Assembly (NCBI GenBank): GCA_019509985.1
Contig: JAEKLF010000037.1
Location: forward strand, 8,127 to 72,126
Length of the DNA: 64,000 nucleotides
DNA from: Burkholderiales bacterium
Lineage (GTDB): Bacteria > Pseudomonadota > Gammaproteobacteria > Burkholderiales > Burkholderiaceae_C
Reading direction: 5' to 3'
Below are positions 6,145-42,041 of the stretch, one piece after another. A model generated the notes under the pieces. That model was not told the origin of the DNA, ran no database searches, and saw only the letters and a program-made list of their open reading frames with translations. Positions within the stretch are counted from its first letter, which is position 1; each line of letters begins with the position of its first letter. The position numbers were made by a program, and so were the translations under genes.

Positions 6145-8010
<1,866 letters not shown>

Positions 8011-8114
8011 CAACCGCCCTCCCGCTTTGGCTTCACTGCCGCGTCTTGCACCGAGCATAAGTCCAGTCCAACACGCCACCGCGGTGTACGACGAGGCCCG
8101 AACCGGCCTCGTCC

Positions 8115-10712
8115 TCAACTCTTGGCCGTCGCCTTCTTGGCGGCGGTCTTGCCCGCTGCCTTCGCCGGCACCTTGGCGGCGCGCGGCTCGAACTCGAAGA
8201 TGACCTTGCCTTCCTTCTTGTCGTAGGCCAGGAAGGCCTTGAACTTGCGCCGCGTCTTGTTGGAGACGAAGTTCTCCAGCAGGTCGGTCTTGCCGTTGGC
8301 CAGCAGCTTGTGCACCTGGGCCGGCTCGATGGGCTGGGTCAGGATGACCTTGCCGGTCTTGAAGTCGCAGGTCACGTTGGCGCCCACCGAATGCTCGCAG
8401 ACGTAGTTGGCGCCGTGCTCGTAGACATGGCCCGCGCACTTGGGGCAGGGGCCGAGCGAGTTCTGGCCGGAGAAGTCCACCGGCTCGCCGTCGCCCTCGG
8501 CCTTCTTGGCGTCCTCGCCGAAGTCGAACTCCAGCTTCCAGTTCTGGATCTCCTCGTCGTAGACCAGCGCCAGCTCGGCCGTGAACGGCCAGCCCGCCTT
8601 GGAGCGGAAGCCTTCCAATGGGCCGATCTTCTTGTCGCGCAGGAAGGTCTCGACTTCGTTCAGCTCGAAGCTGCGGCCGCCCGGAATCTTGCCGATGGAG
8701 AAGCCGCAGGCATCGCTGCCGTCGCCGTGCTTGCCGGTGCAGGTGAAGCGGCGGTAGTTCTCCTTGACGATGCCGCCGCACTTGGGGCACGGCGTCTTCA
8801 GCGTCGCGTAGTCGCCGGGAATGGTGTCGCGGTCGTAGCCCTTGGCCTTGGCGACCATCTTCTCGGTCATGGCCGCGATCTCGGCCATGAAGACCTCGCG
8901 CTTGAGCTTGCCTTTTTCCATCTGGGCCAGCTTGCTTTCCCAGTCGCCCGTCAGCTCGGGCTTGGTCAGGTCTTCCACCTCCAGGCCGCGCAGCAGCGTC
9001 ATCAGCTGGAAGGCCTTGGCCGTGGGAATCAGCTCGCGGCCTTCGCGCAGCATGTACTTCTCGCTGATCAGGCCTTCGATGGTGGCCGCGCGCGTGGCTG
9101 GCGTGCCCAGGCCCTTCTCGGCCATGGCCTCGCGCAACTCGTCGTCGTCGATCAGCTTGCCGGCGCCTTCCATCGCGCTCAGCAGCGTCGCTTCGGTGTA
9201 GCGCGCCGGCGGCTTGGTCTGCAGGGCCTTCACGTCAACGCTCTCAGTGCGCACGACCTCGTTCGGCTGCACCGGCACGAGATTGGCATCCTCGTCGTCC
9301 ACATCCTTGCCGTAGACGGCCAGCCAGCCCGGCTTGACGAGCACCTTGCCGTTGGTCTGGAAGTGATGCTTGTCCAGCACCTTGGAGATGCGCGTCGTGA
9401 CCAGGAACTCGGCCGGCGGGAAGAACACGGCCAGGAAGCGCTTGACGACCATGTCGTAAAGCTTGGCCTCGATCTCGGTCAGGCTCTTGGGCGCCTGCAA
9501 CGTCGGGATGATGGCGAAGTGATCCGACACCTTGGCGTTGTCGAAGACCTTCTTCGTCGGCTTGATGTAGCCCTCCTTCAGCGCCGTCGCGGCATGCTGG
9601 GACAGCGCGCCCAGCGGGCCGGGCAGGTCCTCGGTGGCCAGCATCTTGGCCGTGTCCTTGGCCACCGCGAGGTAGTCCTCCGGCAGGAAGCGCGAGTCCG
9701 TCCGCGGGTAGGTCAGCACCTTGTGCTTCTCGTACAGCGCCTGGGCAATGGACAGCGTCGTCTTGGCCGAGAAGCCGAAGCGCGAGTTGGCCTCGCGCTG
9801 CAGCGTCGTCAGGTCGTAGAGGCCGCCGCAGCTCGTCGTGCTGGGCTTGCTTTCCTCGGTGACGGTGGCGGGCTGGCCCAGCACCGCCTTGGCGATGGCC
9901 TCGGCGTCGGCCGCGTTCCACATCCGGTCGGCACGGCGCTCCAGGTCGTCGTTCTTCTTCCACGCCGGGTCGAACCACTTGCCTTCGTACTGGCCGGCCT
10001 GGGCGTCGAAGTTGGCGCGCAGCTCCCAATAGTCGCGGGCGACGTGCTTGCGGATCTTCTCCTCGCGCTCGACGACGACCGACAGCGTCGGCGTCTGCAC
10101 GCGGCCCACGGTGGTGAGGAAGAAACCCCCGTCGCGCGAGTTGAAGGCCGTCATCGCCCGCGTGCCGTTGATGCCCACCAGCCAGTCGGCCTCGGAGCGG
10201 CAGCGTGCGGCATCGGCCAGCGGCAGCATCTGCGCGTCGCTGCGCAGTTTCTCGAAGCCGTCGCGGATGGCGGCCGGCGTCATGGACTGCAGCCATAGCC
10301 GCTTGATGGGCTTGTTCAGCGGGCCCTTGGCCGGCGTGGCGTACTGCTCGATGAGCCGGAAGATCAGCTCACCCTCGCGGCCCGCGTCGCAGGCGTTGAT
10401 CAGCGCGGTCACGTCCTTGCGGCGGATCAGCTTGGTCAGCGCGTTCAGCCGGCCCTTGTTCTTGTCGATGGGGTTCAGGTCGAAGTGCGGCGGGATGACG
10501 GGCAAGTTGTTGAAGCTCCACTTGCCGCGCTTGACGTCGAACTCCTCGGGCGCCGCGATCTCCACCAGGTGGCCCACCGCCGAGCTGACGACGTACTGCT
10601 CGTTCTCGAAGTGGTCGTCGTGCTTGTCGAACTTGCCAGCCACCGGCGTCAGCGCGCGGACGATGTCCTGCGCGACGGAGGGCTTCTCGGCAATGATCAG
10701 AGTCTTGCTCAT
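8115..10712 (-). CDS. topB: DNA topoisomerase III
   Basis: IIAEKPSVA TOPRIM start, ACDAGREGELIF, VGRVQTPTL, LTYPRTDS (catalytic Tyr), GLGTPATRA. Confidence 0.95.
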   Translation of the reverse strand: MSKTLIIAEKPSVAQDIVRALTPVAGKFDKHDDHFENEQYVVSSAVGHLVEIAAPEEFDVKRGKWSFNNLPVIPPHFDLNPIDKNKGRLNALTKLIRRKDVTALINACDAGREGELIFRLIEQYATPAKGPLNKPIKRLWLQSMTPAAIRDGFEKLRSDAQMLPLADAARCRSEADWLVGINGTRAMTAFNSRDGGFFLTTVGRVQTPTLSVVVEREEKIRKHVARDYWELRANFDAQAGQYEGKWFDPAWKKNDDLERRADRMWNAADAEAIAKAVLGQPATVTEESKPSTTSCGGLYDLTTLQREANSRFGFSAKTTLSIAQALYEKHKVLTYPRTDSRFLPEDYLAVAKDTAKMLATEDLPGPLGALSQHAATALKEGYIKPTKKVFDNAKVSDHFAIIPTLQAPKSLTEIEAKLYDMVVKRFLAVFFPPAEFLVTTRISKVLDKHHFQTNGKVLVKPGWLAVYGKDVDDEDANLVPVQPNEVVRTESVDVKALQTKPPARYTEATLLSAMEGAGKLIDDDELREAMAEKGLGTPATRAATIEGLISEKYMLREGRELIPTAKAFQLMTLLRGLEVEDLTKPELTGDWESKLAQMEKGKLKREVFMAEIAAMTEKMVAKAKGYDRDTIPGDYATLKTPCPKCGGIVKENYRRFTCTGKHGDGSDACGFSIGKIPGGRSFELNEVETFLRDKKIGPLEGFRSKAGWPFTAELALVYDEEIQNWKLEFDFGEDAKKAEGDGEPVDFSGQNSLGPCPKCAGHVYEHGANYVCEHSVGANVTCDFKTGKVILTQPIEPAQVHKLLANGKTDLLENFVSNKTRRKFKAFLAYDKKEGKVIFEFEPRAAKVPAKAAGKTAAKKATAKS

Positions 10713-10831
10713 CGGTCTTTCTCAAGGTCTTGCGTCGGGGCGGGGGACTCAAAATCCCCTGCCTACAATCCGGGCCTCGCGCGCACGCCTACGCACACGC
10801 GCACCCATGAAATCACCGTACCACAGCGCCG

Positions 10832-11308
10832 ATGACGCCAAAAACCCCACGTCTCGCCCCACGCCGCAAGATCGAAGTCCGTGAGTCCGGCGTGCATGGC
10901 CGGGGCGTCTACGCCGCAGCACCCATCAAGGCCGGCGCGCGCATCATCGAGTACACCGGCGAGCGCATCACCTGGGACGTGGCCTTGGACCGCCACCCGC
11001 ACGACCCGGCCCAGCCCAACCACACCTTCTACTTCCACCTGGACGGCGGCCTGGTCATCGACGCGCTGTACGGTGGCAACGACGCACGCTGGATCAACCA
11101 CGCCTGCGAACCCAACTGCGAGGCCGACGAGGTCGACGGCCGCGTCTTCATCCAGGCGCTGCGCGACCTGGCGCCTGGCGAGGAACTGTTCTACGACTAC
11201 GGCCTGGTGCTGGACGAGCGCCACACGGCCAAGGTCAAGAAGCAGTTCGCCTGCTGGTGCGGCGCCGCCACCTGCCGCGGCACCATGCTCGCGCCGAAGA
11301 AGCGTTGA
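10832..11308 (+). CDS. SET-domain protein-lysine N-methyltransferase
   Basis: SGVHGRGVYA, ARWINHACEPN, GEELFYDY, post-SET CWCGAATCRG. Confidence 0.92.
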   Translation: MTPKTPRLAPRRKIEVRESGVHGRGVYAAAPIKAGARIIEYTGERITWDVALDRHPHDPAQPNHTFYFHLDGGLVIDALYGGNDARWINHACEPNCEADEVDGRVFIQALRDLAPGEELFYDYGLVLDERHTAKVKKQFACWCGAATCRGTMLAPKKR

Positions 11309-36082: not shown

Positions 36083-36679
36083 ATGAGCGATTCCAGTTCC
36101 GTGCGCATCGTCGGCGCCAGCGTCCAGACCGAGCTGCCGGTCATCATTGCCGAGCTCGGGCCCATCGCCGACCGGCTGCAGCTCGCCCGCGAGGCCATCG
36201 AGGAACTGCGCGTCAGCCACCCGCAGTCGCCCGAGTCCAACGTGAAGGCGGCGTACATGAGCCCGTGGAAGAGCCACATGCTCAATGCCAAGCTGATGCC
36301 GCTGTGCGCCAGCGTCGTCGAGATCGCCAAGGCCGCGGCGCCCAAGGCCTGGTCGGGCGACCTCGACAAGCTCGGCCTGGACCTGTTGGTCACGCACTGT
36401 TGGGGCGCGGTCTACGAACAGGCCGACTACACGGCGCCGCACAACCACTTCCCGGCCGACCTGAGCTGCGTCGTCTACCTGGAGGCCGAGCCGGGCTGCG
36501 CGCCGCTGGTGTTCTCCAGGACCAGCGCCTACCACCCGCGGCCGGCGACGCTGGTCATGTTCCCCGGCATCACGATGCACGAGGTGCCGGCAACGCCGGG
36601 GCGGCGCGTCGTCGTGGCGATGAACCTGTTCAAGCAGCTGGGGGGCTGGCCAACACAGGATCCGGCGGCGGCAGGCTGA
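36083..36679 (+). CDS. Putative 2OG-Fe(II) oxygenase
   Basis: PHNH..ADLSCVVYL, VMFPG...HEVP, RVVVAMN; resembles the double-stranded beta-helix oxygenase pattern. Confidence 0.65.
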   Translation: MSDSSSVRIVGASVQTELPVIIAELGPIADRLQLAREAIEELRVSHPQSPESNVKAAYMSPWKSHMLNAKLMPLCASVVEIAKAAAPKAWSGDLDKLGLDLLVTHCWGAVYEQADYTAPHNHFPADLSCVVYLEAEPGCAPLVFSRTSAYHPRPATLVMFPGITMHEVPATPGRRVVVAMNLFKQLGGWPTQDPAAAG

Positions 36680-38030
36680 GCCGCGCGCGCAGGCCCGGGC
36701 CGGCGTGGGCGTCCAGCAGCGCCAGCCGGCCGCCGTGGCGGGCGGCGATGTCGGCCGCGATGGCCAGGCCCAGGCCGCTGCCCGTGCCGGTGGCGCTGCC
36801 ACCGCGCCGGAAGCGCTGCAGCGCCGCCGCGCGCTCGGCCGGCGGGATGCCGGGGCCGTTGTCCTCGACCTCCAGCCACGGCCCTTCGGCGCCGCTGCCG
36901 CATCGCACTGTGATGCGCGCGCCGGCGCCGGCGTAGCTGACGGCGTTGTGGATCAGGTTCTCCAGCAGCTCGCGCAGCAGGAAGGCGTGGCCCAGGGCCG
37001 GTGCGTCCTCCAGCTCGAAACCCAGGTCCACGCCGCTGGGCAGGTCGCGGTGGGCCCAGTCCTGGCCGCTTTCGGTGGCGATGTCGCGCAGGTCGATGCG
37101 CTGGCCGACGTCGACGCTGCGGTCCTCCGCGCGCGCCAGGGACAGCAGCTGCTGGGCCAGCCGTGCGCTGCGCACGACGCGCTGGCGCAGCCGCTCCAGC
37201 AGCGGGTCCACGCGCTGGTCGTGCGGCTCCAGCATGGCCAGCTCGATCTCGGTCTGCAGCGACGTGAGCGGCGTGCGCAGCTGGTGGGCGGCATCGGCGA
37301 GGAATTCCCGCTGCGCCTCGGCCGCGCGCCCCAGGCGCTCGAACAGGCGGTTGAAGGCCGCCTGCAGCGGCACCAGCTCGCGCGGCAGGCTGGCGGTGAG
37401 CGGCGTCAGGCGGTGCAGGTCGCGGCGCTCCAGCTCGGCGCTCAGGCCGGTCAGCGGCGTCAACCCCTGGCGGATGGCCCACCAGCCGGCCAGGGCCAGC
37501 AGCAGGGCCAGGCCGGCGCCGTTCAGCGCGACCAGGCCGCCGATCTCGCGCTGCAGCGCGTCGCGCTTGTGCAGGGTCTCGGCGACGAGGACCTGGCAGG
37601 TGCCGGCGCCGCAGTCATGCCCCAGCTGCACGAGGCGCAGCTCGCGGCCGCGCAGCCTGACGTCGCCGTAGTGCGAGTCGCCCGCCGGCTGGGGGGACGG
37701 GCGGGGCTGCAGCTCGGCCAGGCCGGCGTCGCCCTGCAGCACCTCGCCGCGCGGCGCGAGCACGAGATAGAAGACGTCGTCCTGGCGGTCGAAGCGCAGC
37801 GCCCGGTCCATGGTCGCGCTGATGTCGATGCGCGGCTCGCCGCTGCGCAGGTCGATCTGGCCGGCCAGCGTCAGCGCGGTGTCTTCCAGGCCTTCATCGA
37901 GCCAGCTCTGCGCGCTGTGCTGGACCTGCTTGTAAAGCGCCGTGCCCAGCAGCGGCAGCGCCACGACCAGCGGCAGCATCAGCCAGCCGAAAAGCCGGCG
38001 CTGCAGGCTGGAGCGCGGGCGCTCGGCCAA
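36630..38030 (-). CDS. Sensor histidine kinase (QseC/TctE-like)
   Basis: SLQRRLFGWL N-terminus, ADAAHQLRTPL, ENLIHNAVSY, GSGLGLAI; start uncertain (TTG 38030). Confidence 0.85.
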   Translation of the reverse strand: MAERPRSSLQRRLFGWLMLPLVVALPLLGTALYKQVQHSAQSWLDEGLEDTALTLAGQIDLRSGEPRIDISATMDRALRFDRQDDVFYLVLAPRGEVLQGDAGLAELQPRPSPQPAGDSHYGDVRLRGRELRLVQLGHDCGAGTCQVLVAETLHKRDALQREIGGLVALNGAGLALLLALAGWWAIRQGLTPLTGLSAELERRDLHRLTPLTASLPRELVPLQAAFNRLFERLGRAAEAQREFLADAAHQLRTPLTSLQTEIELAMLEPHDQRVDPLLERLRQRVVRSARLAQQLLSLARAEDRSVDVGQRIDLRDIATESGQDWAHRDLPSGVDLGFELEDAPALGHAFLLRELLENLIHNAVSYAGAGARITVRCGSGAEGPWLEVEDNGPGIPPAERAAALQRFRRGGSATGTGSGLGLAIAADIAARHGGRLALLDAHAGPGLRARLSLPPPDPVLASPPAA

Positions 38031-38069
38031 AGTCAGTTGCCCTGCCAGCGGTCGCAGCACCCGCAACGT

Positions 38070-38227
38070 ATGGAGCCCGTGGCGTATTCCGGGCCGCGCG
38101 CCGGGCCGCCCCAAGCCGGCCCGCCTGGGGCTGTTGGCGGCTCGATGCCGCAAACAGCCTCGTCCCCCCGGGGGACCGACTGGGCTTGCCCGCGTTCAGC
38201 GGCGCGAGACCAGGCGAGGGGCTCCAT
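38070..38227 (+). repeat. Second copy of the intergenic palindromic repeat, with 9-bp terminal inverted repeats
   Basis: ATGGAGCCC (38070-38078) and GGGCTCCAT (38219-38227); core GGGCCGCGCGCCGGGCCGCCCCAAGCCGGCCCGC-hairpin-GTCCCCCCGGGGGACCG. Confidence 0.72.
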
Positions 38228-38896
38228 TCAGCCAATCTCTTCCAGAAGATAGCCCAGGCCGCGCACGGTGCGCAGCTGCACGCCGCCCGGCTCGATCTTG
38301 GCGCGCAGCCGCGACAGGCAGACCTCGATGGCGTTGTCGCTGACGCCCTGGTCCCAGGCGTTGCTGGCCAGCGCGATGTGTTCCTTGGGCACGACCTTGC
38401 CGGCACGCGCCATCAGGAAACCGAGCACGTCCCATTCGCGGGCCGACAGCGCCAGCGGCTCCTCGTCGATGTAGGCGCGGCGCGCCTCCTGGTCGATGCG
38501 CAGGCGCGCCAGCTGCAGCTGGTTGCTGGTGCGCGCCTGGCTGCGCCGCACCAGCGCACGGGCGCGGGCGACGAGCTCGGTCAGCGCGAAGGGCTTGACG
38601 AGATAGTCGTCGGCGCCGCCCTCCAGGCCGCGCACGCGGTCCTCGACGGCATCGCGCGCGGTCAGGATCAGCACCGGCACGGCCAGGCCGTCGCCGCGCA
38701 CGCGGCGCAGCGTCTCGAAGCCGTCGATGCCGGCCAGGCCGATGTCCAGGATGAGCAGGTCGTAGGCGTCTTCGCGCAGCGAACGCGGTACCGGCTCGCC
38801 GCGGGCCGTGCAGTCGACGACCCAACCCTGGGAACGCAGGGCGCGAGCGGTGGTTTCGACGAGTTGTTCGTCGTCTTCGACGAGCAGGATGCGCAT
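38228..38896 (-). CDS. OmpR-family response regulator
   Basis: MRILLVEDD, LILDIGL, LILTARD, DYLVKPF, LRTVRGLGY. Confidence 0.93.
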   Translation of the reverse strand: MRILLVEDDEQLVETTARALRSQGWVVDCTARGEPVPRSLREDAYDLLILDIGLAGIDGFETLRRVRGDGLAVPVLILTARDAVEDRVRGLEGGADDYLVKPFALTELVARARALVRRSQARTSNQLQLARLRIDQEARRAYIDEEPLALSAREWDVLGFLMARAGKVVPKEHIALASNAWDQGVSDNAIEVCLSRLRAKIEPGGVQLRTVRGLGYLLEEIG

Positions 38897-38977
38897 GCTC
38901 GTCAGTATGGCGCGACAGCGCCCGATGCGCTGACGTTTGCCTGTCACAGAGCGTCAGCTCGCGGCAAGGCTTGAGTC

Positions 38978-39853
38978 ATGCGCATGACGGCGCCGGATTG
39001 GACACTGCCGGCCATGGACGCGTTAGATGAACGCCGCCCCGCGGTGTTGCTGTTTCATGGCCTGTGCGCCAACCCCCTCGAGCTCGCACCGGTCGCCAAG
39101 TCGCTGCGTGAAGTCGGCTACGTCGTCGAGACTCCGGCCATGGCCGGCTATGGCGTCAGCAGCACCACCGGCGAGCAACTGCCCGTGCCGCCCTTCGAGC
39201 ATTGGCTGGCCGAGGCCGAGGCGGCTTTCGACCGCCTCGCCGCGGAGCACGGCCGCGTCGCCGTCGGCGGCCTGTGCATGGGCGCCGTGCTGGCCCTCGC
39301 CCTGGCCGCGCGCCGGCCGGCCGCCGCCCTGGTGCTGATCTCCACCACTCTGCATTTCGACGGCTGGAACGTGTCGCCCTGGCGCCGCCTGCTGCCGCTG
39401 GCCTACCTGCCGTGGCTGCGCCGGCGCATGAGCTTCAAGGAGACGGCGCCCTTCGGCCTGAAGAACGAGCGCCTGCGCGCCTGGGTCGAGCAGGCCATGG
39501 CGTCGGACAAGGTTTCGGCCGTCGGCGCCGCGCGGCTGTCGGCCGCCTCGCTCTACCAGGCGACCCGACTGATCCGCCACGTGCGCGGCCGACTGGCCGC
39601 CCTGAACGCACCGTCGGTCGTTCTGCACGCGACCGAAGACGACGTCTCCGGCCCGCGCAGCGTGCGCGAGCTGCAATGCCGCCTCGGCCACGAGCCCGAG
39701 GTGCACTGGTTCCACGACAGCTACCACATGCTGACGCTGGACAACGAGCGCATCGCCGTCGCCCGCACGGTGCGCGACTTCCTGCTGCGCCGGCACCCGC
39801 TGGCCCGCCTTTCCCCCGCGACTCCCGGAGCCCTTCATGAGCAACACGCTTGA
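38978..39853 (+). CDS. Alpha/beta-hydrolase (esterase-like) with Cys nucleophile elbow
   Basis: LFHG oxyanion segment, G-L-C-M-G elbow (TGC at 39275-39277), HATEDD, DSYHMLT; start could be 38984 or 39014. Confidence 0.8.
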   Translation: MRMTAPDWTLPAMDALDERRPAVLLFHGLCANPLELAPVAKSLREVGYVVETPAMAGYGVSSTTGEQLPVPPFEHWLAEAEAAFDRLAAEHGRVAVGGLCMGAVLALALAARRPAAALVLISTTLHFDGWNVSPWRRLLPLAYLPWLRRRMSFKETAPFGLKNERLRAWVEQAMASDKVSAVGAARLSAASLYQATRLIRHVRGRLAALNAPSVVLHATEDDVSGPRSVRELQCRLGHEPEVHWFHDSYHMLTLDNERIAVARTVRDFLLRRHPLARLSPATPGALHEQHA

Positions 39854-40100
39854 ACAACTCTGCAGCATCGCCCAGCGCGAGCTCGGCGCCGAAGCGCTGA
39901 GCGACAAGGTCGACACGCCGTTCGCCGAACTCGGCCTCGACTCCCTCGGCCTCGTGGATTTCATGTTCACCGTCGAAGACCACTTCCACGTCAACATCGA
40001 GCACGACCGCGCGCTGCAGACGCCGACGCTGGCCGGCCTGGCCAGACTGGTGGATGAACTGCTGACCGCCAAGGCCGAACCCGTCGCCGCCGCGGCCTGA
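39837..40100 (+). CDS. Acyl carrier protein
   Basis: LGLDSLG phosphopantetheine motif; 87 aa, acidic. Confidence 0.88.
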   Translation: MSNTLEQLCSIAQRELGAEALSDKVDTPFAELGLDSLGLVDFMFTVEDHFHVNIEHDRALQTPTLAGLARLVDELLTAKAEPVAAAA

Positions 40101-41320
40101 TGAGCCGGGTCTGGATCACCGGCCTGGGCGCCATCAGCGCGCTGGGCGCCGGTGCCGACACGCTCGCCGACGGCTGCCAAGCCGGCCGTTCCGGCGTCAC
40201 GGCACAGCCGGGCAGCGACGAGCATGGGCTCAAGCCCTTCGCCGCGGCCGCGGTGCCCGTGCCGCTCGCCACCGGCATGCCGCCGGCCCAGCGCAACCTC
40301 TATGACCGCCACAGCCTGATGGCGCTGGAAGCCGCCGCCGAGGCCTGGGCGCAGGCCGGCCTGCCGGCCACCGCGGCGGACCCCGACCGCGCGGCCGTCG
40401 CCTGGGGCACGGGCCTGGGCGGCTCGGCGTCCATGGAGGCGTCCTACGCGCAGATGTTCACGGCCCGCCCGCCGCGGGTCCACCCCTACACGGTCGTGCG
40501 AGTGATGGCCAACTCGGCGGCCTCCCACCTGGCGATGCGCCACCAGTTGCGCGCGGCCCAGCTCGCCGTGTCCAACGCCTGCGCCTCCTCGGCGCAGGCC
40601 ATCGGCGAGGCGCTGTGGCTGCTGCGCAATGGCCGCGCCGACCTCGCGCTGGTGGGCGGCTCCGAAGCCATGCTGCATGTCGGCAGCGCTTTGGGCTGGC
40701 AGGCCATGGGCGTCATGGCGCCGCTGGACGCTGAAGCTCCCGAGCAGGGCTGCCGCCCCTTCGACGATGCCCGCAAGGGCCTGGTGCTGGGCGAAGGCGC
40801 CGCGGCCCTGGTCATCGAGACCGAGGCCCATGCCCGCGCCCGCGGCGCGACGCCGCTGGCCGTGCTGGCCGGCTACGGCCACAGTGTCGACGCCGTGCAC
40901 CTGTCCCGCCCCGACGCCGCCGGCCAGGCGCGTGCGATGAGCGCCGCGCTGCGCGACGCCGGCCTGTCGCCGGCCGACATCGGCTACGTCAACGCCCACG
41001 GCACGGCCACCGAGGTCGGCGACGCGGTCGAGGCCGAGTCCATCACGACCGTCTTCGGCCGCCGCGCCGTGCCGGTGTCCGCGACCAAGGCCGTGCACGG
41101 CCACCTGATCGGCGCCGGCGGCGCGCTCGAGTTGGTCTCCACCGTGCAGGCCCTGCGCCGGCAACTGCTGCCGCCCAGCGCCCATCTGCGCAGCAGCGCA
41201 TTGAGCGAGCGCTTGGACCTGATCACCGGCGAGGCGCGTGCGGCCAGGCTTCGCGCCGCGATGTCCAACTCGTTTGCCTTCGGCGGCAGCAACGTCGCGC
41301 TGGTGGTAACACAGGCCTGA
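40100..41320 (+). CDS. Beta-ketoacyl-ACP synthase (FabF/NodE-like)
   Basis: NACASS catalytic Cys, YVNAHGTAT, ATKAVHGHLIGA, SNSFAFGGSN. Confidence 0.92.
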   Translation: MSRVWITGLGAISALGAGADTLADGCQAGRSGVTAQPGSDEHGLKPFAAAAVPVPLATGMPPAQRNLYDRHSLMALEAAAEAWAQAGLPATAADPDRAAVAWGTGLGGSASMEASYAQMFTARPPRVHPYTVVRVMANSAASHLAMRHQLRAAQLAVSNACASSAQAIGEALWLLRNGRADLALVGGSEAMLHVGSALGWQAMGVMAPLDAEAPEQGCRPFDDARKGLVLGEGAAALVIETEAHARARGATPLAVLAGYGHSVDAVHLSRPDAAGQARAMSAALRDAGLSPADIGYVNAHGTATEVGDAVEAESITTVFGRRAVPVSATKAVHGHLIGAGGALELVSTVQALRRQLLPPSAHLRSSALSERLDLITGEARAARLRAAMSNSFAFGGSNVALVVTQA

Positions 41321-41357
41321 TTTACGATGCCCTGAACTTCAGCAGAGCAGGTAACGC

Positions 41358-42041
41358 ATGAGCCAGATCCACTTCATCGGCGGCGAAAAGGGCGGCGTCG
41401 GCAAGTCGCTAGTGGCCCGCGTGCTGGCCCAGCATTTCATCGATCGCGGCCTACCCTTCATCGGCTTCGACACCGACCGCTCGCACGGTGCGCTGACGCG
41501 CTACTACGCCGCCTTCGCCGCGCCGATGCTGCTCGACGCCCACGACAGCCTGGACCCCGTCATCGAGGCCGTCGCCGAGCGGCCCGAACGCCGCGTGCTG
41601 GTGGACCTGGCCGCGCAGACGCAAGCCGCACTGACCCGCTGGCTGGACGAAGCCGGCGCCGCCGACGTGGCCGCCGAACTGGGCGTGCAGCTCAACTACT
41701 GGCACGTGATGGACGCCGGCCGCGACTCGGTGGACCTGCTGCGCGCCTGGCTGGACGGCCCGGCCGCGGCGCTACCGCTGGTCATCGTGCTCAATGAGGT
41801 GCGCGGCGAGCGCTTCGAGCTGCTGGCCGCCAGCGGCCTGCTGGAGCGAGCCCAGGCCCAGGGTGCACGCGTGCTGCATCTGCGCAAGCTACCCGACACG
41901 CTGCTGCAGAAGGTAGACGGCGCCGGCGCAAGCTTCTGGGCCGCATCCCAGGGCCCCGGCGGCCTGGGGCTGCTGGACCGACAGCGGGTGCGGGTCTGGC
42001 TGCAACGCATCGGCGCCGAACTGGACGCCGCGGGCGTCTGA
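41358..42041 (+). CDS. P-loop NTPase-like protein (ParA/TraL-like deviant Walker A)
   Basis: IGGEKGGVGKS, FDTDRSH, VLVDLAAQ. Confidence 0.7.
   Translation: MSQIHFIGGEKGGVGKSLVARVLAQHFIDRGLPFIGFDTDRSHGALTRYYAAFAAPMLLDAHDSLDPVIEAVAERPERRVLVDLAAQTQAALTRWLDEAGAADVAAELGVQLNYWHVMDAGRDSVDLLRAWLDGPAAALPLVIVLNEVRGERFELLAASGLLERAQAQGARVLHLRKLPDTLLQKVDGAGASFWAASQGPGGLGLLDRQRVRVWLQRIGAELDAAGV

What the first reader, a model, noticed from the sequence alone, without database searches (positions are those of the whole stretch)
38978..42041. Mini lipid-tailoring cluster: Cys-nucleophile hydrolase + ACP + ketosynthase + P-loop protein
Seen: overlapping hydrolase, ACP and KAS genes, then a deviant-Walker-A protein, divergent from an OmpR/QseC-like pair. 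The hydrolase elbow is G-L-C-M-G rather than G-x-S-x-G, with Asp and His retained. No reductase or dehydratase is in the cluster. Established: dedicated ACP/KAS pairs such as rhizobial NodF/NodE make specialised acyl chains, and Cys-elbow alpha/beta hydrolases form acyl-thioester intermediates. Inference: an uncharacterised pathway that makes and transfers or releases a special acyl chain under two-component control.
Basis: partly seen in the sequence, partly recalled or inferred. Interest (0 to 1): 0.62.

Follow-up and report, generated by a model that had tools for sequence, protein, structure and literature searches.

The report
Private acyl-chain cassette with cysteine off-loader
Three tightly coupled genes (a lipase-fold enzyme with an active-site cysteine, its own acyl carrier protein and its own chain-extending enzyme) form an unstudied lipid-making unit found in about a fifth of Burkholderiales genomes sampled, usually beside a PmrA/QseB-like sensor pair; the neighbouring P-loop gene is not part of it.

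Summary
An alpha/beta hydrolase (G-L-C-M-G elbow, Asp221, His250), an ACP and a FabF-type ketosynthase overlap one another and lie divergent from an OmpR-type regulator and its kinase.

The core of the reading is supported. The three genes keep the same order in 66 of 80 related loci, down to 39% hydrolase identity, and diverge together (rho 0.92). No reductase or dehydratase recurs beside them.

The cysteine is ancestral here, not strain-specific, but it is interchangeable with serine: 45 Cys against 24 Ser in the same operon context.

Relatives of the hydrolase end carrier-protein assembly lines (ligase-ACP-hydrolase; PKS ending in ACP-hydrolase). So it most likely takes the acyl chain off the ACP thioester and transfers or releases it.

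Two corrections:
- The P-loop gene is not a member. It is distributed independently, and in two genomes it sits directly beside the regulator with the cassette absent.
- The sensor pair is a near-universal genus gene, while the cassette is present in only half the species.

I found no characterised member. Product and acceptor remain unknown.

The parts
36630..38030 (-). Sensor histidine kinase (2CSK_N, HisKA, HATPase_c) of the PmrB/QseC/CopS kind. The ORF runs to 38153, but relatives align only from about residue 41, so the start is probably near 38030.
   Evidence: An orthologue is present in 34 of 37 genus genomes.
38228..38896 (-). OmpR-family response regulator. Best NCBIfam match is PmrA (210 bits, below the 330-bit cut-off), then TctD and QseB. 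The start is taken at MRILLVEDD.
   Evidence: Regulators adjacent to the cassette in four gene arrangements fall in one supported subclade.
38897..39013 (.). Divergent control region. It holds half-site-like repeats at 11-bp spacing: CTGACG (38930), CTGTCA (38941), CGTCAG (38952), GGCAAG (38963). The first pair (38930-38946) is also kept in genomes that lack the cassette. This is a candidate regulator-binding site, by inference only.
   Evidence: The pattern occurs once in the window, against 0.36 expected by chance, so the argument rests on conservation.
38978..39853 (+). Alpha/beta hydrolase with a monoacylglycerol-lipase-like fold. The triad is Cys100 (codon 39275-39277), Asp221 and His250. 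The enlarged cap carries the family motif [YF]DGW (here FDGWNVSPWRRLLP). The likely true start is 39014. Proposed role: off-loading enzyme for acyl-ACP.
39837..40100 (+). Dedicated acyl carrier protein of 87 aa. It is acidic (15 D+E against 5 K+R), and the phosphopantetheine serine is Ser36 in the motif LGLDSLG.
40100..41320 (+). FabF-type beta-ketoacyl-ACP synthase with Cys161, His300, Lys330, His335 and the FAFGGSN gating loop intact. It is about 35% identical to the genome's other KAS II genes.
41358..42041 (+). ParA/ArsA-type deviant-Walker-A protein. It is a neighbour only and NOT a member of the conserved unit.

Best explanation
The hydrolase (ABH), ACP and KAS are a self-contained, translationally coupled cassette that builds or extends an acyl chain on a private carrier protein and then off-loads it.

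Proposed steps:
1. The private ACP is phosphopantetheinylated and loaded with malonate by housekeeping enzymes. This is inferred; no transacylase or PPTase is in the cassette.
2. The private FabF-type KAS condenses an acyl primer with malonyl-ACP to give a 3-oxoacyl-ACP. Its catalytic residues are shown to be intact. Either the housekeeping FabG, FabZ and FabI process the product for further rounds, as with NodF/NodE, or the 3-oxo or 3-hydroxy product is taken directly. Which of these happens is unknown.
3. The lipase-fold enzyme attacks the ACP thioester with Cys100 (serine in other lineages) and forms an acyl-enzyme. It then passes the chain to an acceptor, which I favour, or to water. That it acts on carrier-protein thioesters is supported by domain fusions. 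The acceptor is unknown.

Expression is probably driven from the 117-bp divergent region by the adjacent PmrA/QseB-like regulator (inferred). Several neighbourhoods hint that the acceptor or destination is in the cell envelope.
For: Co-conservation:
- The order ABH-ACP-KAS is the same in all 20 genus loci and in two distant genomes. It holds in 66 of 80 loci across Betaproteobacteria and Halothiobacillus.
- The same trio occurs in a permuted order, ACP-KAS-ABH, in another lineage.
- Identities co-vary: Spearman 0.92 for ABH against KAS and 0.90 for ABH against ACP.
- The genes overlap by 17 nt and by 1 nt.

The hydrolase acts on acyl-S-carrier protein:
- Family members are fused as FAAL-ACP-ABH (Legionella, about 980 aa), as FAAL-ACP-KS-DH-ER-KR-ACP-ABH, and as KR-ACP-ABH.
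- The Legionella tri-domain gene stands alone. Hydrolysis there would be a futile cycle, which favours acyl transfer.

Long-acyl substrate:
- The AlphaFold model has pLDDT 89.
- Its nearest folds are monoacylglycerol lipases, with target-normalised TM-scores of about 0.8 for the Bacillus enzymes and about 0.75 for the human one (by sequence).

Catalytic competence:
- The hydrolase triad is invariant.
- The KAS keeps its Cys-His-His-Lys set.
- Free Cys/Ser exchange fits an activated thioester donor.

Regulation:
- Twenty immediately adjacent regulators, in four gene arrangements, fall in one clade (SH-aLRT 98) with only 3 of the genome's 19 paralogues.
- The control region holds conserved 11-bp-spaced repeats.

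Envelope hints:
- The cassette abuts a complete arn (L-Ara4N lipid A) operon in one lineage.
- An AcrB-type RND pump follows the KAS in 5 loci.
- A sister group pairs the hydrolase with a DUF4118 membrane protein and MipA/OmpV, or is fused to DUF4118.
Against: - No product, acceptor or primer is known, and no experiment or expression data were available.
- Nothing distinguishes transfer from hydrolysis for this stand-alone enzyme.
- In this genus the kinase is in 34 of 37 genomes but the cassette in only 19. The sensor pair is therefore not dedicated to the cassette, and control by it is inferred from adjacency alone.
- 33 of 43 distant loci have no adjacent sensor pair.
- The envelope hints each come from a few lineages and could be chance neighbours.
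- The repeat box is not statistically significant on its own and was not found in distant loci.
Confidence: 0.6

Rival explanations
1. Signal synthase. The cassette makes a diffusible lipid-derived signal, for example a beta-keto acid or methyl ketone released by hydrolysis of 3-oxoacyl-ACP. The adjacent kinase and regulator would sense it, as in the DSF (RpfF/RpfC/RpfG), Phc, Lqs and Cqs systems.
For: - A synthase-like unit sits next to a sensor pair of one subfamily in several gene arrangements.
- The cassette has no reductase, so a 3-oxo product is plausible.
- An RND exporter lies downstream of the KAS in 5 loci.
Against: - The sensor pair is kept in 15 genus genomes that lack the cassette.
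- Most distant cassettes have no adjacent sensor pair.
- The family's fusions point to transfer rather than hydrolysis.
Confidence: 0.12
2. Loading enzyme. The hydrolase is not the releasing step but a primer acyltransferase. It would self-acylate from an acyl-CoA or a lipid ester and load the private ACP or KAS with an unusual starter.
For: - The hydrolase is the first gene of the operon.
- The cassette has no other acyltransferase.
- A Cys or Ser acyl-enzyme can work in either direction.
Against: - In every fusion found, the domain lies C-terminal to the last ACP, which is the release position.
- In those same proteins a FAAL already does the loading.
Confidence: 0.1
3. Ordinary esterase beside spare fatty-acid genes. 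The hydrolase would be a general carboxylesterase or monoacylglycerol lipase, and the ACP and KAS redundant housekeeping paralogues, with no shared pathway. A variant of this rival is a BioH-like pimeloyl-ACP methyl ester esterase.
For: - Public annotations call the hydrolase 'carboxylesterase'.
- The nearest solved structures are lipases and esterases.
Against: - Synteny, co-divergence and gene overlap hold across families.
- The KAS scores 364 bits against the fabF equivalog cut-off of 494 and is only about 35% identical to the genome's other KAS II genes.
- A cysteine nucleophile is a poor fit for oxygen-ester hydrolysis (own knowledge).
- The family is fused to carrier proteins.
- No biotin genes are nearby.
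Confidence: 0.05

Closest known systems
NodF/NodE of rhizobia (dedicated ACP plus KAS II for Nod-factor acyl chains). Comparison from own knowledge.
   Same: A private ACP is paired with a FabF-type condensing enzyme. There are no reductases or dehydratases in the unit, so housekeeping FAS enzymes would be borrowed. The unit is accessory and patchily distributed.
   Different: - NodF/NodE hand the chain to NodA, an N-acyltransferase that is not an alpha/beta hydrolase, within a nod regulon controlled by NodD.
- Here the partner is a Cys/Ser lipase-fold enzyme, the neighbour is a PmrA/QseB-like sensor pair, and there are no nod genes.
- No NodE-specific model was available to test membership.
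Cysteine thioesterase domains of assembly lines, ObiF and SulM (PMC11298585)
   Same: These are alpha/beta-fold off-loading enzymes with a Cys-His-Asp triad. They take the chain from a carrier-protein thioester as an acyl-enzyme. That paper describes cysteine as the 'less common' alternative to serine.
   Different: - Those are classical type I TE domains that form strained beta-lactone or beta-lactam rings.
- This enzyme matches PF12146 Hydrolase_4, with no thioesterase family among its Pfam matches, and has a monoacylglycerol-lipase fold.
- It is free-standing.
- Its orthologues in the same operon use serine, so cysteine-specific chemistry is unlikely.
Bacillus monoacylglycerol lipase and Est30 carboxylesterase (PDB 3RLI, 3RM3, 5XKS, 1TQH)
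   Same: These are the best matches by sequence (E 5e-17) and by fold (target-normalised TM-score about 0.8 for the lipases). They share the GL(S/C)MG elbow, the ED acid and the SYH...TLDN histidine motif.
   Different: - Identity is only about 23%.
- The nucleophile is cysteine here.
- The cap stretch at about residues 117-186, which carries the invariant [YF]DGW motif and several conserved Arg/Lys, does not align with these lipases. The whole protein is about 30-45 residues longer.
- This enzyme is linked or fused to carrier proteins.
Pks13 thioesterase domain of mycobacteria (own knowledge)
   Same: It is a terminal alpha/beta-fold domain that uses its acyl-enzyme to transfer a lipid chain from ACP to an acceptor (trehalose) rather than to water. 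That is the behaviour proposed here.
   Different: - It belongs to a different TE family and uses a serine nucleophile.
- It is part of a megasynthase.
- The acceptor here is unknown.
AcpXL/FabF1XL/FabF2XL/LpxXL very-long-chain lipid A acylation (own knowledge)
   Same: A private ACP and private KAS enzymes make a special chain for an envelope lipid.
   Different: - That cluster carries its own dehydratase and dehydrogenase.
- It uses an LpxL-family transferase.
- None of these is present here.

Membership tests
Alpha/beta hydrolase, Hydrolase_4 (PF12146), monoacylglycerol-lipase-like | Profile match above the curated cut-off, and the alpha/beta fold. | tested here: met
   84.4 bits against a cut-off of 27. 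AlphaFold pLDDT 89.3. Foldseek top hits are monoacylglycerol lipases, probability 1.00.
Alpha/beta hydrolase, Hydrolase_4 (PF12146), monoacylglycerol-lipase-like | Serine nucleophile in G-x-S-x-G, with Asp and His. | tested here: not met
   The nucleophile is Cys100 (GLCMG). Asp221 and His250 are kept. Orthologues carry Cys or Ser.
Acyl carrier protein (PF00550) | PP-binding profile and the D-S-L phosphopantetheine serine. | tested here: met
   52.8 bits against a cut-off of 20.8. Ser36 lies in LGLDSLG. The protein is below every NCBIfam AcpP equivalog cut-off.
FabF, housekeeping KAS II (TIGR03150 equivalog) | Score above the equivalog cut-off. | tested here: not met
   364 bits against a cut-off of 493.75. 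It is 34-35% identical to the genome's other KAS II genes.
Elongating ketosynthase (KAS I/II type) | Cys-His-His catalytic triad, the active-site Lys and the gating Phe loop. | tested here: met
   Cys161, His300, His335, Lys330 and FAFGGSN, seen in the alignment to 1J3N.
NodF/NodE system | Location in a nod regulon with a NodA acyltransferase, and polyunsaturated acyl products. | tested here: not met
   There are no nod genes in the window around the cassette. The product was not testable.
Dienelactone hydrolase (PF01738, cysteine nucleophile) | Full-length profile match. | tested here: inconclusive
   25.5 bits against a cut-off of 21, but only residues 19-115 match, and the score is far weaker than for Hydrolase_4.
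PHA synthase, PhaC (Cys-Asp-His alpha/beta fold) | A PhaC family profile match, and an obligatory cysteine. | tested here: not met
   No PhaC family appears among the Pfam or NCBIfam hits. Cysteine is replaced by serine in many orthologues.
Exosortase-associated hydrolases TIGR03100/TIGR03101 (a lead from earlier scan notes) | NCBIfam profile match. | tested here: not met
   Neither is among the NCBIfam hits at E <= 0.01.
   The P-loop gene follows the KAS in 2 of 21 genus loci (the window and L025/G005) and in none of 80 wider loci. It is present in 9 genus genomes that lack the hydrolase. It lies beside the RR, with no cassette, in G020 and G033.
PmrA/PmrB, QseB/QseC or TctD/TctE two-component systems | Equivalog-level profile match. 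| tested here: not met
   RR: PmrA 210 bits (cut-off 330), TctD 195 (337), QseB 184 (345). HK: PmrB 144 (314), QseC 142 (475). The pair belongs to the same broad subfamily but to no named orthologue.

The most novel reading that the evidence does not exclude
The cassette and the adjacent kinase and regulator together form a previously unrecognised lipid-signal circuit. The private ACP and KAS would make a 3-oxoacyl chain. The Cys/Ser enzyme would release it as a beta-keto acid, methyl ketone or small acyl conjugate. The 2CSK_N kinase would sense it, and genomes that keep only the sensor pair would act as eavesdroppers.
Probability: 0.12. Interest if true: 0.8.

Novelty: new variant of a known kind. 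Interest (0 to 1): 0.5.

Why it matters
Dedicated ACP/ketosynthase pairs are the usual way bacteria make special-purpose lipids. This one is found in 83 of 401 sampled Burkholderiales genomes and 44 of 167 genera, yet it has no assigned product.

Its third component defines an undescribed group of lipase-fold enzymes that serve as carrier-protein off-loaders. They occur free-standing, at the end of PKS modules, and fused to a fatty-acid ligase and ACP in Legionella.

Finding the acceptor would add a new acyl-transfer route, possibly to an envelope lipid under a PmrA-like stress regulator.

The family is also a rare natural case in which the catalytic nucleophile is encoded as Cys (TGY), Ser (TCN) and Ser (AGY) in orthologues of one operon. 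That is the cysteine bridge long proposed to link the two serine codon sets.

Tried and rejected
- P-loop gene as a pathway member: rejected on distribution and on the cassette-less arrangement beside the RR. Its own identity stays vague: weak CbiA/ParA, TraL and ArsA matches only.
- Recent horizontal insertion of the cassette: not favoured. ABH, ACP, KAS, RR and HK identities fall together across the genus, which fits vertical descent with repeated loss. I did not test this formally.
- A regulator-binding box shared across distant loci: the Roseateles box CTGWCR-N5-CTGWCR was not found upstream of distant cassettes and is not significant alone in the window.
- Other recurrent partner genes: clustering all ORFs of 50 distant loci gave only ABH, KAS, ACP, RR and HK, plus an RND pump (5 loci) and an Acetyltransf_6 GNAT (6 loci).
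- Literature: five full-text searches found no study of this operon or enzyme family. Two earlier searches failed on syntax.
- Plasmid collection: the only hits are Paraburkholderia and Caballeronia secondary replicons, all annotated generically.
- A broad 36-sequence alignment could not seed the genome scan. A 10-sequence alignment worked.
Full report
**What is there**

The window is a high-GC (about 71%) stretch of a Roseateles genome (Burkholderiales), by the names of the closest homologues and related loci. On the + strand lie these genes:
- an alpha/beta hydrolase (ABH), 38978-39853;
- an acyl carrier protein (ACP), 39837-40100;
- a FabF-type ketosynthase (KAS), 40100-41320;
- a deviant-Walker-A protein, 41358-42041;
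- a secreted M16 peptidase.

Divergent from the hydrolase are an OmpR-type response regulator (RR, 38228-38896) and a 2CSK_N histidine kinase (HK, about 36630-38030).

The hydrolase and ACP overlap by 17 nt, and the ACP stop and KAS start share TGATG.

The hydrolase elbow is GGLCMGA, with Cys100 encoded by TGC at 39275-39277. The alignment to Bacillus monoacylglycerol lipase puts this cysteine on the catalytic serine, Asp221 on the acid and His250 on the base.

The KAS keeps Cys161, His300, Lys330, His335 and the gating loop. It scores 364 bits against the fabF equivalog cut-off of 494 and is only about 35% identical to the genome's other KAS II genes.

The hydrolase probably starts at Met13 (39014). 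The two upstream ATGs are not conserved in relatives, and many homologues are 279 aa long.

**Is it a unit?**

Yes, for three of the four genes.
- In 20 loci from the genus and in two distant genomes (46% and 39% hydrolase identity) the order ABH-ACP-KAS is kept.
- A scan of one genome per species gave 529 confirmed relatives. In the best 80 loci, 66 carry ABH-ACP-KAS in the same order and orientation. These span Sphaerotilaceae, Rhodocyclaceae, Gallionellaceae, Casimicrobiaceae, Oxalobacteraceae, Thiobacillaceae, Nitrosomonadales and Halothiobacillus.
- Identities to the window's proteins co-vary: Spearman 0.92 for ABH against KAS and 0.90 for ABH against ACP.
- One lineage has the permuted order ACP-KAS-ABH.
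- Clustering every ORF of the 50 distant loci found no other frequent partner and no reductase or dehydratase.
- The hydrolase family occurs in 83 of 401 genomes and 44 of 167 genera sampled across the order.

**The P-loop gene is not a member**

- It follows the KAS only in the window and in one other genus genome, and in none of the 80 wider loci.
- It is present in 14 of 37 genus genomes. Nine of these lack the hydrolase, and in three others it lies far from the cassette.
- In G020 and G033 it sits 97 bp from the RR with the cassette absent. This is a clean presence/absence of about 2.4 kb, and sequence homologous to the window continues on both sides.
- It gives only weak ParA, ArsA and TraL matches.

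**The two-component pair**

The kinase orthologue is in 34 of 37 genus genomes (33 at 80% identity or more, one at 64%). The cassette is in 19, and it is always beside the RR when present. So the sensor pair is a core gene of the genus and the cassette is an accessory neighbour. Identities of all five genes fall together across the genus, which fits inheritance with repeated loss.

Outside the genus an OmpR/2CSK_N pair again lies beside the cassette in 10 of 43 distant loci. It can be downstream or upstream on the same strand.

In a tree with the window genome's 19 OmpR-type paralogues, the 20 immediately adjacent regulators all fall in one clade (SH-aLRT 98) that holds only three paralogues.

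The regulator is closest to PmrA, TctD and QseB but reaches no equivalog cut-off.

The 117-bp divergent region carries half-site-like repeats every 11 bp. The regulator-proximal pair is also kept in cassette-less genomes. This is suggestive only.

**The cysteine**

Among 121 close homologues the nucleophile is Cys in 91, Ser in 29 and Gly in 1. Among the 150 best 50%-identity representatives it is Cys in 74, Ser in 71 and Gly in 4.

On a tree of 130 representatives at least 19 Cys/Ser switches are needed, against a shuffled mean of 47.6.

Among operon-linked loci the split is 45 Cys to 24 Ser. This count reads two regex misreads by eye as Cys.

The outgroups of the Roseateles/Ideonella clade are all Cys, so cysteine is ancestral here and not a strain oddity. 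It is, however, plainly interchangeable with serine within the same pathway.

The serine codons are of both kinds (17 TCN, 10 AGY). Within one supported clade, TCN-Ser and AGY-Ser lineages each branch among TGC-Cys relatives.

**What the hydrolase does**

The family has several hallmarks:
- a G-x-[CS]-x-G elbow;
- an E-D-D acid;
- an S-Y-H-M histidine motif;
- a cap that carries an invariant [YF]DGW motif and conserved basic residues. This part of the cap does not align with the lipases.

The model is confident (pLDDT 89.3). Its nearest folds are monoacylglycerol lipases, which suggests a long acyl chain as substrate.

The decisive clue is the fusions. The same domain ends proteins of three architectures: FAAL-ACP-ABH, FAAL-ACP-KS-DH-ER-KR-ACP-ABH and KR-ACP-ABH. 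The first kind is found in Legionella as a stand-alone gene. So the domain acts on acyl-S-carrier protein at the release position. In the ligase-ACP-ABH proteins simple hydrolysis would undo the ligase reaction, which argues for transfer to an acceptor.

Cysteine and serine are both established nucleophiles for carrier-protein off-loading domains (PMC11298585).

**Most likely mechanism, and its limits**

The private ACP is charged with malonate (inferred). The private KAS extends an acyl primer on it (its residues are shown intact). The Cys/Ser enzyme takes the chain as an acyl-enzyme and passes it on or releases it (supported by the fusions; the acceptor is unknown).

Hints that the destination is the envelope come from a few lineages only:
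- a complete arn lipid A operon abuts the cassette;
- an RND pump lies downstream of the KAS in five loci;
- a sister group pairs the hydrolase with a DUF4118 membrane protein and MipA/OmpV, or is fused to DUF4118.

The rivals are a lipid-signal synthase sensed by the adjacent kinase, a loading rather than releasing role, and an unrelated esterase. They are weighed in their own sections.

**Comparison and novelty**

The nearest known logic is NodF/NodE, or AcpXL-type private ACP/KAS pairs, joined to an assembly-line-style off-loader. But the off-loader belongs to the Hydrolase_4/lipase group, not the classical thioesterase family.

I found no characterised member in five literature searches, nor in the plasmid annotations.

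That is agreement, not independent evidence.

I rate this a new variant of a known kind, of moderate interest.

Noticed in passing
window 39275-39277, and loci L033-L112: The catalytic nucleophile codon is TGY (Cys) in 53, TCN (Ser) in 17 and AGY (Ser) in 10 of 80 orthologues. Within one supported Sphaerotilaceae clade, a TCN-Ser lineage and an AGY-Ser lineage each branch among TGC-Cys relatives. This is a natural example of cysteine bridging the two serine codon sets.
   Followed up: partly
window 38030-38228: About 200 bp separate the RR stop from the likely kinase start. In several relatives the two genes abut or overlap (for example L015, L036), while others show a gap of about 184 bp (L014). 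An earlier first-reader note places a hairpin repeat copy at about 38091, so a small repeat element may have inserted between the regulator and the kinase.
   Followed up: partly
L129-L131 (Legionella metagenome contigs), gene at 8001-10940: A stand-alone 979-aa protein with FAAL, ACP and a Cys-type hydrolase domain of this family. It sits next to eukaryote-like Ras/Roc GTPase and ankyrin-repeat genes. Its function is unknown.
   Followed up: no
L135 7001-14864 and L136: In one lineage the ABH-ACP-KAS cassette converges on, and overlaps by 4 nt, a complete arn (L-Ara4N lipid A modification) operon. This includes ArnD (234 bits to the deformylase model).
   Followed up: partly
L098, L101, L112, L133, L137, L138: In Paraburkholderia, Caballeronia and relatives, a family member (serine-type in the three loci whose elbow was read) lacks ACP and KAS. 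Instead it sits in a conserved trio: DUF4118 membrane protein, hydrolase, MipA/OmpV. One representative fuses three DUF4118 copies to the hydrolase.
   Followed up: partly
L140 5522-7912: The same three genes occur in the permuted order ACP-KAS-ABH, followed by a LysR regulator and a hybrid kinase instead of an OmpR pair.
   Followed up: no
L094 6010-7730: Two hydrolase genes of this family lie in tandem ahead of ACP, KAS and an AcrB-type RND pump in a Gallionella genome.
   Followed up: no
window 38978-39013: The annotated hydrolase start is probably 36 nt too far upstream. The conserved start is the ATG at 39014, giving a 279-aa product.
   Followed up: partly
genome contig C237 (outside the window): The genome carries a large multi-ketosynthase (PKS-like) region, with at least a dozen KS hits on one contig.
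   Followed up: no
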